A DNA stretch of 64,000 nucleotides. Origin: Magallana gigas. Lineage: Eukaryota. This document shows positions 58,501-64,000 of this stretch, piece by piece. The stretch spans positions 9,858,001 through 9,922,000 of the forward strand of contig NC_088859.1 of assembly GCF_963853765.1 (NCBI RefSeq). The letters are read 5' to 3'. The first letter of the stretch is position 1; each line of letters opens with the position of its first letter. A program made the position numbers.

Positions 58501-61500
58501 ACGAGAACGTTGAAAAAGGGAGAAAACCGTCGATGATCTGAAGAGACCATGTTATCCCCGTTATTGTGAATAAGCGACAAAATATTACAAATTCATTCCT
58601 AACAGATTGATTTCCCGGAACTTTTGGAACATTTCTTATGGAAATAATTGTTTTGACAAAGAAAGATAAACTGCAGATACACATAACACCAAGAGGTATA
58701 ATGAATGAGGCTAATCGTGAATAAGGATTGTCGATAAAGCACATCCTATTTCCATATCCAACATCGCCATTGCCTGAGACTATCCATGATATAAGAATAT
58801 TTAATGCTATTATCATGCATGGTAAAAATGTGATAAAAACTATATATGCTTGGATGTTATTCAAATGATATCTTGAATTTGTGTTGGAAAATTGAAAACT
58901 TCTGTACATGTGAAACGAACTTACCGACATTGTTAAAAATGACACTAACCAAAAATAATGAAGAACTATACCAAACCCAACACATGCCCTTTTTTGTAAA
59001 GAACCAAATTCACTTAGCTGAAAAATAATAAGTGTAAGAGCCAGCGAGAGTATCAGTATCATGTTAATTTTTCCGGGTATTGTTCTCAAATCTTTTTTAA
59101 ACACATAAATTAGAAATGAAATCATTAAACACAGAATGGAAATCGCATCAAGGATAAGCGTTATTGTTGACAAAAGAAAATCTCGTTTACGTTCTTCTAA
59201 AAAATACGTGACTGTGTCAGTTCCAGCGTTGAAGTCTTCAGCGCAAACCCTTGCTGATCCATCAGGTAAAAGTTCAAACAAATTGGAATCAAATATTTTG
59301 TTCATGCCATACACCACTAATTTTCCTAACTGTTGATCTACACGATATTCGTCAAAATAAAGTGGAACTTGAACGCAAGTCAATAGTTTAGATGTTCGAA
59401 CAGTTCTATATTTTTGTCTATTTGCCACTACCTGATATTTCACAAACGGCGGTAGAGTACAACGTAAGAAATAGTCGGCTAGATATATTTTATATGGGTT
59501 AAAATATAATTGTTTTGTGCTCATAGTGAGAGACAAGTAGAGATCAAATTTAGAATGTACTTCTCTTCTAGATATCACCATCTTAGTTGTAATTGCAAAT
59601 AACCGCCTCTCAATATCAACTCGTTCTACAGCCTGTTTGATAAATATACCTACAGCTATGTTCCCTGAAAATTTTTCAGAAGATAACATTTGATTTGTTT
59701 TAAAGCAAGGATGGTCTATTTGAACAAACAAATACTCTATCGAATTTGATTCTATCTGAAGCCTTGACAGTATTGTTTGTTTAATATCTGCCGATATGAT
59801 GCCCAGTAGATCCTGAACAGGTAATAGAGAAGACAAGTTTCCTTGAAAATCTGATGTCAGAACATATCCTAGGTTTTTGGTTACTGTAAAAAGTGCTGGG
59901 CATGATCCATTACGGAGAAACTTTCCAGGAAAACAGGTCAAGTTCCTACAGTCTTCCTACAAAAAAACCCCAGAAAAATGTATACATATAAAATGTCGCA
60001 AGACTATTGGACTTAACGTTTATTGGTCTGATGAATTATTTTAATAACAAGAAAAGCTCACCAAATTCCTCATGTATGATTCCGTTGATTTACATTTATG
60101 AGATTCATTCTCCAGAAAATCATCACGAAGTTCAGAATACAAGAACAAATTCCTAAAGATTGGAGTCCACTTAAATCGTTTTGACGTTATTGAGTAATAA
60201 CCGTCGCTTAGCCCACCCGAACAATCCACTCTATCCGTCCTGTTATTGCAATGTTTGCAAAATATATTCTTATACGGCGAATAGAATGCAATTTGAGGGA
60301 AAAACTGGCAACCAATTTCATCTCGATGATCGTAGAAAGACAGTTTTCCAGAGGCATTGCACTTACTTATCGTGATATTTTCTATCATTTCTGGGTTGCA
60401 TAATGCACAGAACTGATTTTTATGAAGTTTACATGGCCTGTGCATGGCATAGATCATCCTAAAAGCCCTAGACGAAACATTTTCACAAGCATATATTATT
60501 TGGGGATCCTTAATTAGCCATTTCCCAGTTAAATTGCACTTATTATAACGTACTTGTTCTCTGTGACATAGAGGGACACTTTGGTGACCTTTACCCTTTG
60601 GAGATGAAATTGGTAAATATGTAATATTGCAGTTAGTATCTTTGAGTGTTACGACTAATTGCTTTATCGTAATAAAGTTCCTGTGGTCAATGTATTTTTT
60701 ACAGTACAATTCGATGTTCCATGGTTTACCCAAATCAAACACAGGTCTTTGAGGCGATGTATTACATAAATAACAATACATGTTGAGGTATGATATACCA
60801 GTGGTAATATCACGTATTGGATAAGAAGAAAATATGTCACTTCCCTCTGCTCCGTCTTGACATAATTTCTCCATATACATTGGATACTGAAATTGCATGT
60901 AACAACCATTCGTGACCGTGTATTCCACATCTGGTTTGGTCCTTTTAAAATGCTCTCCAGCCAGTTGTTTTGAATGAATACATTCTGCTGGATATTGTAA
61001 TGCAAAATCTTCACAACAATCATTATGATGAAAGCACGAAGGGTTACAAGTACAGGAAATGAATAGATTTGAAAGGTTTTTTGGAATACCATGGCTGTTG
61101 CATACTTTGACATATTTCTTGAATGAGAAAGATTTATATATCAATTCTGTGACATTGAGTGTTTGGTTATTGTTAAGAATAATACCAGGCGTTTTCTGCT
61201 TCATTCGGTGTTCGGATTTAGGAATTTTGTTAGTCACTAATTTGAAATACTCTTTACTAAAATTGTTAATTATTATCGACATATGGTATAAATCCTTTTT
61301 ATTAAATGTTAAAAAAACCTTTGTGCTGATTTTTGCAGATGCGTCAACATAGTTGTACTTAAAGTTATCAGGAGCATTGCAAATTCGACAAAATATATTT
61401 TTGAATGGGAAAGTACCTTCATTGAATCCAAAACGAGAGCAAGCTTGCTTGATATTTTTATCAAAGACGTTCCACATTCCGGTAACATTGCATTGTGTTA

Positions 61501-64000
61501 TTATGTCTCCTTCGAAGAATGTGGGATTACACATTCTACAAAACGGGTTTTTAAACAAGGTATCATTATTGACATACATTGATTCGCAAGCATATAACAC
61601 GTCATTGTCTTTTTTCTTCCAGAATCCGGTCTTGTTACACGAATCAAAATGAAACCCCTGTAGATGATAGCAGTTATATGCAGGCTTGTCATCGTGTGGT
61701 GCAAACTGCATGACACATGCGTGTTCTATTCCATGATCAACAACTTCTTTGAATGAAGATAAAAAGTTGATATCTAAAAACACTCGGCAATAAATGTCCA
61801 GATTCCAGAACTGATACGATGGTTCGTGATTGCATTGAGCACATATTCTATTAGCATACGTTAGATTTGTTAAAATGCTAGTCACTGGAGGATACTTTAG
61901 TTTATCAATACTATTTGCCTCTTTTTCACACTTTTCTTTGATGGGTTGTTCTGTTCCATCAGGACATTTTTTAATCAAGAGAAATGACGATCTCTGTTCT
62001 CGACTTTCATCTTGCGTGGCGTTAACGAAGGTAACATTATTACATACTAGATCACTGTGTGCAAAGTATTTGTCTGGACAGCAATCTCCTCTACCAAAAC
62101 ACGAATTGTCACAGAAGCAATTGGGACACAATTTGTGACTTTTTGATATCTTAAACTCTGGTGTTCTATAACTGAACTGAGTAATGTTACAAACATTTTC
62201 TGGTCCACACATCGTGAGATGATGCAACAGTAGATTTGTAAAATTGATAGACTGTGAGTTAACAAGTCTAATATTGGTAAAAAAGTATATGCAAAATACT
62301 ATCATATGGCGATTCATCTTCTGCATTAAATGGTCTGAAACGTAAATAAGATATTTTGATTAAAGACATGTTTCAATTATTTAATGTTAACACATGTAAG
62401 TTTGAAATTATCTATTCTACTATATTAAATAATACACTTGAATTTTTTGCCTTTAATACCAATACATATGTATTTTAAAAAAGAGTACTGTCGTTTGTTT
62501 TACATATTTTAAGCATTATTGTACTTGAAGATTACCAATTTGTTTTTATTTTTTTCAATCAAGCCTCGCTAATTAATAATAATAATTAAAAAAGTCAAAA
62601 AATTCCGGAAACCATCCAGATATTTTGGATTTTACAATCATGCGCATTACACTCACGCTTAATCCCGGGAGGCTTGTTAGTTTATGTTTCACAAATATCA
62701 CATTTGCATGGATAAGCTCAGAAACGATAATACAAATATGTGTAAATTTTCATTGGAAATTTACGATCTAATCTGTTCATCAAAGAAAATACGGGAGATA
62801 ACTCTAACACAGTGCATTTACTACGAGAAATCTCGAGAGTTTTGAATGTCAACATCGTGTGTTAATTGAAGCGATTTAAAAACGTTGAAAAGTGTTGAAT
62901 TCTTCAATAATAGAAAAAAATGTTCAGATGAAAAGTATTTACAGTCTTAAAATGGTTTATGAATAATTTGACAGTTATTTTTAATTCAACTTTATTAATT
63001 TTCTCCAAAATCGTTTCGGAGCAATTCTGGAATTTTCTGCTACAATACTAGTACATGGGCGATATTTTAAATCTGGCGAGGGCTTGTCCCGCGACACACT
63101 TCGATTATTCTAACTAAGCAATTAATTTAATATTAATTAATAGCATTATTGTAGGCTTTTATAAAGCTTGGTTATGTAAATGTCAACAATACGGTGTGTC
63201 GCTGTATCTATTTCGTAAATGTCCTATATCATGTACAGTGTTAACCCATGCACGCACGGGTCAAAGTCTAGTGTTCTTAAACAAAGCAACAACAAAAATA
63301 CTCAACTCGTATTATCAAATACCAGTCGTCTGACAATTATCAATTATCAATGTAAACGACAATGAAATATTTTTATGAACATAACAATGCCAATGAAAGT
63401 GATAAACTAACTAAAGTTACAGTTACAATTATTCATTTTTAAAGCACATGGATTGATTGCTGAAATATATCGCAAGCATTGCACACAACTGATAATTAGT
63501 ATCTGCATTTAATATGCATCACGATTGTTTAATTCCGTTCATTGAAATCCTAAAAGCCTGTTTGAAAACATGAGCTAGCTTAAAAATTCAATAAAACTGA
63601 CTTTCCCTACTGAATAATGCTTCACTTACGATTTGTATCATATTATTTCTTTTTATTAATTTGTATAATGAAATCAATTCAAACGGTCATAAAAGGAAAT
63701 AGTTTTTAATCAAAAGTGATTGCTATAGTTCGATAATTTATCTATTATGAATGATTAAATGCTAATTAAGTTATCGACAGATGTATAATTTACGCACAAA
63801 ACATTGTTTGATTATAAGGTTTTAGAGGGATGTCTTTACTTAGTATTAACAGTTTTTTAGTGTCAATGCAAATTAGTATGTTGTTCAATCAGGGTGACGA
63901 CTACACTTGCAAAAAAATTACCACTTGATTTAGAAGGTTATTCACAAAAGCCTATAATAATAAATAGATCGAATTTTCAAGATTTGTCTGATTTCAATTT

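What the first reader, a model, noticed from the sequence alone, without database searches (positions are those of the whole stretch)
60062..62326. GPCR ectodomain built from a duplicated super-repeat containing an unnamed four-Cys module
The 755-aa exon has two super-repeats. Each is: SMB-like motif, a C..PV....Y.N..C..CN segment, a W...(I/L).C segment, then two copies of C-N-x-(T/S)-G-x-(W/L)-x(7-8)-(A/G)-C-x(10-20)-K-N-x-F-C-x-x-C-N. The four copies start DSCNKTGFW, TQCNVTGMW, NKCNLTGKW and SKCNASGKL, and each has an N-x-T/S glycosylation sequon. I cannot match this module to a named domain, so it may be an undescribed extracellular fold of a lophotrochozoan receptor expansion.
Basis: partly seen in the sequence, partly recalled or inferred. 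Interest (0 to 1): 0.65.

Follow-up and report, generated by a model that had tools for sequence, protein, structure and literature searches.

The report
Cysteine-rich ectodomain of oyster Methuselah-like receptor
This oyster gene encodes a cell-surface receptor whose large outer part is built from a duplicated block of small, sugar-tagged, four-cysteine units; the units are real and have no solved structure, but the protein family is already catalogued as a domain of unknown function.

Summary
Minus-strand exon 62326..60062 (755 codons) encodes a signal peptide and two homologous ~360-aa units (self-BLAST E 5e-35). Each unit has an SMB-like knot, a divergent four-Cys segment, a W...C segment and two clear four-Cys modules. 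The modules recur in 159 of 167 relatives: four Cys in 397 of 401 copies, an N-x-S/T sequon after Cys1 in 381 of 401.

Exon 2 (59956..58331) carries a complete 7tm_2 domain and no GPS or Methuselah_N, so this is a Methuselah-like or adhesion-like class B receptor.

All 14 homologs carry precomputed PF28443, named DUF8401 in Pfam 38.1. That model is missing from the local Pfam copy, so I could not show whether it spans the modules. Language-model look-alike clusters carrying DUF8401 are commonest in Arthropoda as well as Mollusca. SMB-bearing Methuselah-like receptors are in print.

AlphaFold models are confident (pLDDT 87 and 93.7), and no PDB chain matches by sequence or Foldseek. Function is unknown. 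I infer a rigid, glycosylated ligand-binding scaffold. Verdict: an uncharacterised member of a catalogued family, of moderate interest.

The parts
60062..62326 (-). Exon 1 CDS, 755 codons (P0001): signal peptide plus two ectodomain units
   Evidence: 745 of 752 aligned residues identical to C. angulata LOC128166357.
62252..62326 (-). Signal-peptide-like N-terminus (residues 1-25)
   Evidence: Read from the sequence: hydrophobic stretch IVFCIYFF followed by VNSQ/S. Low-confidence helix 7-17 in the model. No signal-peptide predictor was available.
61172..62251 (-). Unit 1 (residues 26-385)
   Evidence: Self-BLAST E 5e-35 against unit 2. pLDDT mostly above 90.
62042..62128 (-). SMB-like knot 1 (C67..C95; core C-x-C-x3-C-x5-CC)
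   Evidence: Pfam PF01033, 2 stretches. The Cys are invariant in 12 aligned homologs.
61829..61966 (-). Module A1, divergent four-Cys module (C121, C133, C162, C165-N)
   Evidence: hhalign probability 90-95% against the B and C modules, 98.8% against A2.
61787..61807 (-). W174...C180 segment
   Evidence: Read from the sequence. W174 invariant and C180 nearly invariant.
61526..61639 (-). Module B1 (C230-N-K-T-G-F-W ... A-C247 ... K-N-P-F-C263-R-M-C266-N)
61376..61492 (-). Module C1 (C279, C296, C313, C316-N)
60062..61171 (-). Unit 2 (residues 386-755). Residues 704-739 are predicted disordered.
60980..61054 (-). SMB-like knot 2 (C425..C449)
   Evidence: Best Pfam Somatomedin_B stretch, residues 424-442.
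60761..60904 (-). Module A2 (C475, C489, C518, C521-N)
   Evidence: hhalign probability 96-97% against the B and C modules.
60701..60721 (-). W536...C542 segment
   Evidence: Read from the sequence.
60395..60538 (-). Module B2 (C597, C614, C640, C643-N; extra C632)
60245..60361 (-). Module C2 (C656, C673, C690, C693-N)
59957..60061 (-). Intron, 105 nt, phase 0: GT at 60061/60060, T-rich tract, AG at 59958/59957. A second AG lies 4 nt further on, at 59954/59953.
   Evidence: Use of the second AG reads TVGT-stop, which is the C-terminus of the annotated ortholog P0002.
58331..59956 (-). Exon 2: 541 codons plus stop. About 255 aa of unassigned pre-membrane region, then 7TM and a short tail.
   Evidence: 70% identical over 540 aa to the C-terminal half of paralog P0005, down to the same C-terminal residues TRL.
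58460..59176 (-). 7tm_2 domain (exon-2 residues 261-499)
   Evidence: Pfam PF00002, E 2.8e-9, 37 bits against a cut-off of 20.6, profile 3-250 of 250. Best PDB relatives are adhesion GPCR 7TM domains (ADGRG2, E 1.6e-11).

Best explanation
The finding is the first exon of a two-exon oyster (Crassostrea) gene for a class B, Methuselah-like or adhesion-like seven-helix receptor.

Shown:
- The mature outer part is two tandem copies of a ~360-residue unit.
- The family is catalogued in Pfam 38.1 as DUF8401, here with an SMB-like knot.
- Each unit contains an SMB-like knot, three related four-Cys modules (A divergent, B and C clear), a W...C/helix core between A and B, and a beta-hairpin tail.
- In the model a module is a loop carrying C1-N-x-T/S-G-x-W, a helix ending in A-C2, a second loop, and a short helix starting at F-C3-x-x-C4-N.
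- The two-unit form arose once, before the sampled two-unit proteins diverged.

Inferred:
- The four Cys form two disulfides; the connectivity is not determined.
- The near-invariant Asn after C1 is N-glycosylated. The modules would then be disulfide-stapled, glycan-bearing bricks that build a rigid scaffold.
- That scaffold holds the SMB knots and other binding surfaces away from the membrane. A still unknown ligand bound there is relayed to the 7TM bundle.
- There is no GPS autoproteolysis or tethered agonist, as in Methuselah-type receptors.
- Use of an AG four bases downstream of the acceptor would instead give a secreted ectodomain.
For: Gene model:
- GT/AG, phase 0, exon 2 open for 541 codons.
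- Exon 2 is 70% identical to the C-terminal half of full-length paralog P0005.
- 7tm_2 is complete.

Family:
- PF28443/DUF8401 is on 14 of 14 homologs, including the 99%-identical P0002.
- Atlas clusters nearest to exon 2 combine 7tm_2 with DUF8401 (67-78% of members). At rank 8 (score 0.90) is an arthropod 'G-protein coupled receptor Mth2' cluster.
- Profile search: 2440 representative clusters at E<=1e-3, 1037 at <=1e-10, 229 at <=1e-30.

Units and modules:
- Self-BLAST E 5e-35.
- hhalign 99.0-99.6% among B1, C1, B2 and C2; 90-97% for A against B or C.
- 401 full module copies in 159 of 167 proteins. Four Cys in 397 of 401, the sequon directly after C1 in 381 of 401, C1-C2 spacing of 16 in 373 of 401.
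- The Cys are invariant in 12 aligned homologs.

Structure:
- Exon-1 model, 122-row alignment: pLDDT 87.0, pTM 0.81.
- Isolated B1-C1 pair: pLDDT 93.7, pTM 0.67, two helices per module.

Duplication history:
- In 94 two-unit proteins, first and second units fall on the two sides of one branch (support 99, 1 change, shuffled mean 62.9, 0 of 500 shuffles as low).

No cleavage or Mth domain:
- No GPS, GAIN or Methuselah_N hit at E<=10 on either exon.
Against: - Function is not tested. No ligand, expression or binding data were seen.
- Disulfide pairing and glycosylation are inferred.
- The closest annotated ortholog (P0002, 756 aa) is modelled without any membrane part. It ends in TVGT, the reading given by the downstream AG, so a soluble product may be the main or an additional form.
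- Placement in the Mth/Mthl clade rests on an Atlas look-alike score (0.90) and on literature context, not on a 7TM tree with Drosophila references.
- The arthropod range rests on Atlas clusters whose sequences I could not fetch.
- pTM 0.81 for the whole exon may mean the modules are sub-structures of one larger domain rather than autonomous domains.
Confidence: 0.7

Rival explanations
1. Exon 1 encodes mainly a secreted, soluble cysteine-rich glycoprotein, not a receptor ectodomain. Splicing to the AG at 59954/59953 shifts the frame and stops after four residues.
For: The 99%-identical annotated C. angulata protein P0002 is 756 aa and ends in TVGT. The window gives TVGT-stop from 59952. Most database relatives are about 750 aa without a TM part: 128 of 167 have no TM hit.
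Against: The first AG after the T-rich tract (59958/59957) gives an in-frame 541-codon exon without stops, 70% identical to the paralog's C-terminal half and ending at the same C-terminus. Full-length annotated relatives use that junction (P0005, P0008). Many 750-aa database entries from unnamed assemblies may be single-exon ORF calls. That is my inference; it was not checked.
Confidence: 0.2
2. The four-Cys 'module' is not a domain of its own. It is a repeated sub-structure inside one larger globular domain, the DUF8401 unit, so there is no separate new fold to name.
For: pTM 0.81 for the whole 755-aa model suggests confident packing between parts. In the aligned proteins the modules follow the same A, W...C, B, C order. 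DUF8401 is annotated on fragments that include the core next to the modules.
Against: The isolated B1-C1 pair is modelled at pLDDT 93.7. Module number varies, from 0 to 3 in single-unit receptors and 1 to 6 HMM hits per protein. Modules B and C are tandem copies of one another.
Confidence: 0.4
3. The module is a very divergent copy of a named small cysteine-rich domain, for example the hormone-receptor motif of class B receptors, EGF-like, or TNFR-type repeats.
For: Class B receptors often carry such domains (general knowledge). Module A shares only the final motif with B and C, so divergence in this family can be large.
Against: No Pfam-A family matches the module region at E<=10. A PDB sequence profile gives 0 hits. 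Foldseek against PDB gives 0 hits at E<=0.001 with the full model and a single hit at E 9.3 with the module pair. Caveat: Foldseek also failed to recover the SMB knots from the full model, so its power on small disulfide-rich domains is low.
Confidence: 0.07
4. The C...C...C-x-x-C pattern binds a metal ion (zinc-knuckle-like) instead of forming disulfides.
For: Four Cys including a C-x-x-C pair is a common zinc-ligand pattern (general knowledge).
Against: The protein has a signal-peptide-like start, 20 N-x-S/T sequons and an even 48 Cys between C40 and C702 (49 Cys after the signal peptide, counting C745), and it lies N-terminal of a 7TM domain. It is therefore extracellular, where Cys are normally oxidised (inference).
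Confidence: 0.03

Closest known systems
Pfam DUF8401 (PF28443, Pfam 38.1) proteins of molluscs, e.g. Crassostrea angulata LOC128166357 and LOC128166354
   Same: 99% (P0002) and 60% (P0005) identity to exon 1. Same unit order and same modules. P0005 has the same 7tm_2 C-terminal half.
   Different: Nothing essential: the window gene is a member of this family. P0002 is annotated without the membrane half.
SMB-bearing adhesion-like/Methuselah-like GPCRs: Nematostella NvX and planarian PARF1 (passages of PMC3261222); Mth/Mthl homologs with Somatomedin_B in Nematostella, Branchiostoma and Saccoglossus (passages of PMC4768249)
   Same: A class B 7TM with one or two Somatomedin B domains in the ectodomain and no canonical Methuselah ectodomain. 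A C. gigas expansion of Mth/Mthl is reported.
   Different: Those papers, in the passages I read, do not describe the four-Cys modules. I could not fetch those sequences to test whether they contain them.
Drosophila Methuselah (ectodomain crystal structure cited in PMC4768249; Pfam Methuselah_N PF06652)
   Same: Probably works alike: a cysteine-rich, non-cleaved ectodomain in front of a 7tm_2 bundle. An arthropod Mth2 cluster is among the look-alikes of exon 2 (score 0.90).
   Different: No Methuselah_N match at E<=10. Per the paper's text, the Mth ectodomain has 10 Cys forming 5 disulfides. This ectodomain is about 1000 aa with 49 Cys in mature exon 1.
Adhesion GPCRs (ADGRG2, ADGRL3 and others)
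   Same: Best solved-structure relatives of the 7TM part (E 1.6e-11 to 1e-2, 22 chains). Large modular ectodomain.
   Different: No GAIN or GPS autoproteolysis domain detected.
Somatomedin B domain (Pfam PF01033)
   Same: The core C-x-C-x3-C-x5-CC knot is present twice. The Pfam score is above the gathering cut-off.
   Different: Only profile positions 16-34 of 40 are matched in the best stretch, and the N-terminal Cys pair is not in the canonical place. PF01033 is precomputed on only 3 of the 14 homologs.

Membership tests
Pfam DUF8401 (PF28443) | Significant match to the PF28443 profile | tested here: met
   By proxy only. The model is absent from the local Pfam copy (one search shows no such hit). 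P0002, identical at 745 of 752 aligned residues, and all 14 of 14 homologs carry precomputed PF28443. The name comes from the Atlas.
   No coordinates are given for precomputed domains. Fragment P0167 (= residues 9-201, no B or C module) carries PF28443. P0166 (= residues 483-755) and P0164 (= residues 265-600) carry it too. The family therefore covers at least the core equivalent to residues ~129-201. Extension over the modules remains open.
Somatomedin B domain (PF01033) | Pfam match above the gathering score, and the cysteine knot | tested here: met
   E 1.6e-5, 25.5 bits against 23.1, 2 stretches. It is partial: profile positions 16-34 of 40. The core C-x-C-x3-C-x5-CC is seen in both units.
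Class B GPCR (7tm_2, PF00002) | Full-length 7TM profile match | tested here: met
   Exon 2 residues 261-499, profile 3-250 of 250, 37 bits against 20.6. Exons were searched separately; the joined protein was never built.
Adhesion GPCR (class B2) | GAIN domain with GPS autoproteolysis motif before TM1 | tested here: not met
   No GPS or GAIN family at E<=10 on either exon.
Adhesion GPCR (class B2) | 7TM similarity to adhesion receptors | tested here: met
   All 22 PDB sequences at E<=0.01 are adhesion GPCRs.
Methuselah/Methuselah-like (Mth/Mthl) | Methuselah_N ectodomain (PF06652) | tested here: not met
   No hit at E<=10. According to PMC4768249 (passages), non-arthropod Mth/Mthl members all lack it, so this does not exclude membership.
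Methuselah/Methuselah-like (Mth/Mthl) | Placement inside the Mth/Mthl clade in a 7TM phylogeny | not tested
   No Drosophila reference 7TM sequences were obtainable with the tools. There is only a lead: the Atlas cluster 'G-protein coupled receptor Mth2', score 0.90, rank 8.

The most novel reading that the evidence does not exclude
The C-N-x-T/S-G-x-W ... A-C ... K-N-x-F-C-x-x-C-N unit is a new, autonomous extracellular repeat fold: a glycan-bearing two-helix, two-disulfide brick with no relative among solved structures. On this reading it is the ancestral building block of the previously 'domain-less' ectodomains of ancient Methuselah-like class B receptors across protostomes (molluscs and arthropods). 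Its obligatory N-glycan would then be part of the fold or of ligand recognition, in the way EGF and thrombospondin repeats carry conserved glycosylation sites.
Probability: 0.25. Interest if true: 0.6.

Novelty: new member of a known kind. Interest (0 to 1): 0.35.

Why it matters
Methuselah-like and adhesion-like class B receptors are expanded in oysters, octopuses and insects. De Mendoza et al. (passages of PMC4768249) state that 51 family members have ectodomains resembling no known domain.

This gene shows what one such ectodomain is made of. It is a once-duplicated unit of SMB-like knots and three small four-Cys modules with an almost invariant glycosylation sequon, and it is modelled with high confidence.

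That gives a concrete handle for expression, disulfide and glycan mapping, structure determination and ligand search in a family of at least about a thousand 50%-identity clusters. It also flags a possible switch between soluble and membrane-bound forms at a pair of AG acceptors four bases apart.

It does not overturn anything. The family already has a Pfam accession as a domain of unknown function.

Tried and rejected
- Local Pfam-A on both exons at E<=10: only Somatomedin_B and 7tm_2 pass. DUF7448 (E 0.13) and TspO_MBR (E 0.28) are below their cut-offs and are taken as noise.
- NCBIfam: 0 families. The library covers bacterial and archaeal proteins, so this says little.
- PDB by sequence profile of 12 homologs: 0 hits at E<=10.
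- Foldseek of the full model against PDB: best E 0.99, probability <=0.12. The listed chains (ribosomal proteins, lysyl-tRNA synthetase and others) are taken as noise.
- Foldseek of the module pair against PDB: 1 match at E 9.3. Against BFVD viral models: 0 matches.
- Module-pair query against longer proteins: only 9 candidates and 6 close relatives, so it was uninformative for range.
- Exon-1 query against shorter proteins: 6 fragments, used to bound DUF8401.
- Paper searches: 'PF28443' and 'DUF8401' gave 0 papers each. 'methuselah' + 'somatomedin B' + 'ectodomain' gave 2 papers. 'somatomedin B' / '7tm_2' / 'mollusc' gave 15 papers, and none of the 14 listed titles and abstract openings describes the module. 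In passages of PMC11682238 and PMC6408891 I found only general bivalve and cephalopod GPCR context.
- Cysteine co-loss to infer disulfide pairing: only 4 of 401 copies lack a Cys, and none lacks two, so it was uninformative.
- The listing of cluster members for organism names of 10 representatives could not be run. The organisms of the 150 representatives are therefore unknown.
- The first structure job was rejected for alignment size and repeated with 122 rows.
- Single-unit receptors as the ancestral state: rejected for this sample, because the 10 single units scatter inside the unit-1 and unit-2 sides of the tree (10 changes for 10 rows).
- A second copy of the gene in the window: none found by tblastn.
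- The joined two-exon protein was never assembled or searched; each exon was handled separately.
- The closed collections (metagenome contigs, viral contigs) and the prokaryote-only genome contigs were not scanned.
- Supplementary files were not opened. Supplementary Tables S2 and S3 of PMC4768249 may list whether this gene is among the C. gigas Mth/Mthl genes.

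
Full report
**What is there.**
The stop-to-stop frame 60041..62359 on the minus strand holds a 755-codon reading from the ATG at 62326 to a GT donor at 60061/60060. After a 105-nt intron with a T-rich tract, the AG at 59958/59957 opens a second frame in phase 0. That frame runs 541 codons to a stop at 58331-58333. I handled the two exons separately throughout and never built or searched the joined protein. The window has no N, and tblastn finds no second copy of the gene in it.

**Exon 2 is a receptor.**
- Pfam 7tm_2 matches exon-2 residues 261-499 over profile positions 3-250 of 250 (E 2.8e-9, 37 bits against a cut-off of 20.6).
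- All 22 PDB sequences matched at E<=0.01 are adhesion GPCR 7TM domains; the best is ADGRG2 at 1.6e-11.
- Neither exon gives a GPS, GAIN or Methuselah_N match at E<=10.
- Exon 2 is 70% identical over 540 residues to the C-terminal half of the annotated full-length paralog P0005 (C. angulata LOC128166354, 1285 aa), ending at the same C-terminal residues TRL. This supports the in-frame junction.
- By language-model features, the nearest Atlas clusters are molluscan 7tm_2 proteins, several carrying DUF8401 in 67-78% of members. An arthropod 'G-protein coupled receptor Mth2' cluster follows at rank 8, score 0.90. That is a lead, not an alignment.

**The observation.**
Exon 1 (P0001) has 50 Cys and 20 N-x-S/T sequons. 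Residues 26-390 against 391-755 give BLASTP E 5e-35 at 24% identity over 371 columns, so the super-repeat is real.

Pfam Somatomedin_B passes its cut-off with two stretches (25.5 against 23.1 bits). The best stretch covers only profile positions 16-34 of 40, so 'SMB-like' is the right word.

Some details need correcting:
Read off the sequence, the gaps are x9 and x11-21.
- The second unit has P-I rather than P-V.
- Module 3 has a fifth Cys.

**A third module per unit.**
Profile-profile comparison on columns cut from a 122-sequence alignment gives these results:
- 99.0-99.6% probability among the four clear modules.
- 98.8% between the two A segments.
- 90-97% between A and the B or C modules. 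Some pairs match only over the last 10 columns; others match over 37-39 columns.

I read each unit as: SMB-like knot, module A, a W...C/helix core, module B, module C, then a beta-hairpin tail.

**Conservation.**
Twelve homologs keep every module Cys. An HMM built from the four window copies finds 505 hits at domain E<=1e-3 in the 167 stored proteins. Of these, 401 are full-length copies in 159 proteins. Among the 401:
- 397 have all four Cys.
- 381 have N-x-S/T directly after Cys1.
- 373 have exactly 16 residues between Cys1 and Cys2.
- N after C1 is at 97%, W at 84%, K-N at 79% and 98%, F at 82%, and the final N at 98%.

A glycosylation sequon this well kept inside a repeat is its most unusual feature.

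**Family size and repeat number.**
A profile of 12 exon-1 homologs finds 2440 representative clusters (50% identity) at E<=1e-3, 1037 at <=1e-10 and 229 at <=1e-30. Some of the weakest may match the SMB part only.

Unit counts among the 167 stored proteins:

| Units | Proteins | With a 7TM hit |
|---|---|---|
| 0 | 2 | 0 |
| 1 | 47 | 11 |
| 2 | 117 | 27 |
| 3 | 1 | 1 |

In total 39 of 167 have a 7TM hit.

In a FastTree of both units from the 94 proteins with two near-complete units, first and second units lie on the two sides of a single branch. Support is 99, there is one change of label, the shuffled mean is 62.9, and 0 of 500 shuffles are as low. The duplication therefore happened once and early.

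Ten single-unit receptors scatter within both sides (10 changes for 10 rows). The three-unit protein has two second-type units that are 91% identical to each other. These are later losses, partial gene models, or a recent gain. It is a quick tree with some long branches, and I excluded P0002 as a near-duplicate of the window protein.

**Is it named?**
The local Pfam copy (24736 models) has nothing on the modules. However, every homolog returned with precomputed domains carries PF28443: 14 of 14, 6 of 6 and 6 of 6. The Atlas labels it DUF8401 (Pfam 38.1) and lists clusters of 293-387 aa 'SMB domain-containing protein' carrying it, commonest in Arthropoda and in Mollusca.

No coordinates are given for the precomputed domains, so I used fragments:
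- P0167 equals residues 9-201, has no B or C module, and still carries PF28443.
- P0166 equals residues 483-755 and carries it.
- P0164 equals residues 265-600 and carries it.

The simplest reading is that DUF8401 includes the core equivalent to residues ~129-201 (the end of module A, W...C, and the helix). Whether it runs on over B and C is open; my guess is about 60% that it does. Searches for 'PF28443' and 'DUF8401' found no paper.

**Structure.**
AlphaFold2 on exon 1 with 122 aligned sequences gives mean pLDDT 87.0 and pTM 0.81. Only residues 1-4, 20-23 and 704-739 fall below 50.

The isolated B1-C1 pair gives pLDDT 93.7 and pTM 0.67. In the model each module is:
- an extended loop carrying C1-N-x-T-G-x-W;
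- a helix that ends at A-C2;
- a second loop;
- a short helix beginning at F-C3.

Foldseek against PDB finds nothing at E<=0.001 with either model: best E 0.99 for the full model and 9.3 for the pair. BFVD gives nothing. A PDB sequence profile gives nothing at E<=10.

One caveat applies. The full-model search did not recover the SMB knots either, so Foldseek is weak on small disulfide-rich pieces. No AlphaFold DB library was on hand.

**Literature context.**
- Passages of PMC3261222 describe a Nematostella cluster (NvX) and a planarian cluster (PARF1) of adhesion-like receptors. These share homology with Methuselah and have one, or in one case two, Somatomedin B domains.
- Passages of PMC4768249 define Mth/Mthl by the 7TM domain and report an expansion in Crassostrea gigas. 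They find Somatomedin_B in Nematostella, Branchiostoma and Saccoglossus members. They state that non-arthropod members lack the Mth ectodomain and that 51 members have ectodomains resembling no known domain.
- Passages of PMC6408891 report a Methuselah-like expansion in octopus.
- None of these passages describes the four-Cys module.
- I did not see supplements. Supplementary Tables S2 and S3 of PMC4768249 may list this gene.

**How it most likely works.**
Shown: a signal-peptide-like start, two DUF8401-type units, a 255-aa unassigned pre-membrane region, a complete class B 7TM, and no GPS.

Inferred:
- The ectodomain is extracellular.
- Its module Cys form two disulfides each.
- The conserved Asn is glycosylated.
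- Together these give a stiff, glycan-coated scaffold that presents binding surfaces. An unknown ligand bound there modulates the 7TM bundle directly, as in Methuselah-type receptors, rather than through a cleaved tethered agonist.

**A side observation that bears on the 'GPCR' label.**
A second AG lies four bases downstream, at 59954/59953. Using it puts the frame out and reads TVGT-stop. That is exactly how the annotated 99%-identical C. angulata protein P0002 ends (756 aa, no membrane part). A secreted ectodomain may therefore exist beside the receptor, or that annotation may be a modelling choice. Only transcript data can tell.

**Verdict.**
The module is real, conserved and without a solved relative. 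But the protein belongs to a family already catalogued as DUF8401, within a receptor class already discussed in print, and it is probably not confined to lophotrochozoans. It is a new member of a known but uncharacterised kind.

**What stayed unchecked.**
- The extent of PF28443.
- The organisms of the 150 representatives (could not be run).
- Arthropod, cnidarian and planarian sequences.
- Disulfide pairing.
- Splice usage.
- The closed metagenome and viral contig collections.

Noticed in passing
window 59938-59958 (minus strand): Two AG acceptors lie four bases apart. The first gives the in-frame receptor. The second gives TVGT-stop, identical to the C-terminus of the annotated C. angulata ortholog (756 aa, no membrane part). 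This is either a possible soluble/membrane isoform switch or an annotation artefact.
   Followed up: partly
window 59192-59956 (minus strand), exon-2 residues 1-255: The ~255-aa region between unit 2 and TM1 (it starts EDCRNLTC) has no Pfam family at E<=10. phmmer finds it in 30 of the 167 stored relatives. It is a second unassigned ectodomain piece.
   Followed up: partly
window 60395-60538 (minus strand), residue C632: Module B2 has a fifth Cys and a longer C2-C3 loop (21 residues). 21 of 401 module copies in relatives also have five Cys.
   Followed up: partly
window 19612-20130 and 17843-18385 (minus strand): An open frame with a BACK domain (PF07707, E 1.9e-18) and a nearby 181-aa frame with no Pfam hit. 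They are probably exons of a BTB/Kelch-type gene.
   Followed up: partly
window 27998-30769 (minus strand): A 924-codon open frame with hydrophobic N-terminal segments and a long Ser/Pro/Lys-rich tail. It has no Pfam family at E<=0.01. Local G+C is raised (0.40 against about 0.32).
   Followed up: partly
P0016 (1663 aa, representative library): A relative with three units. The second and third are 91% identical to each other, which points to a recent extra duplication of unit 2.
   Followed up: partly
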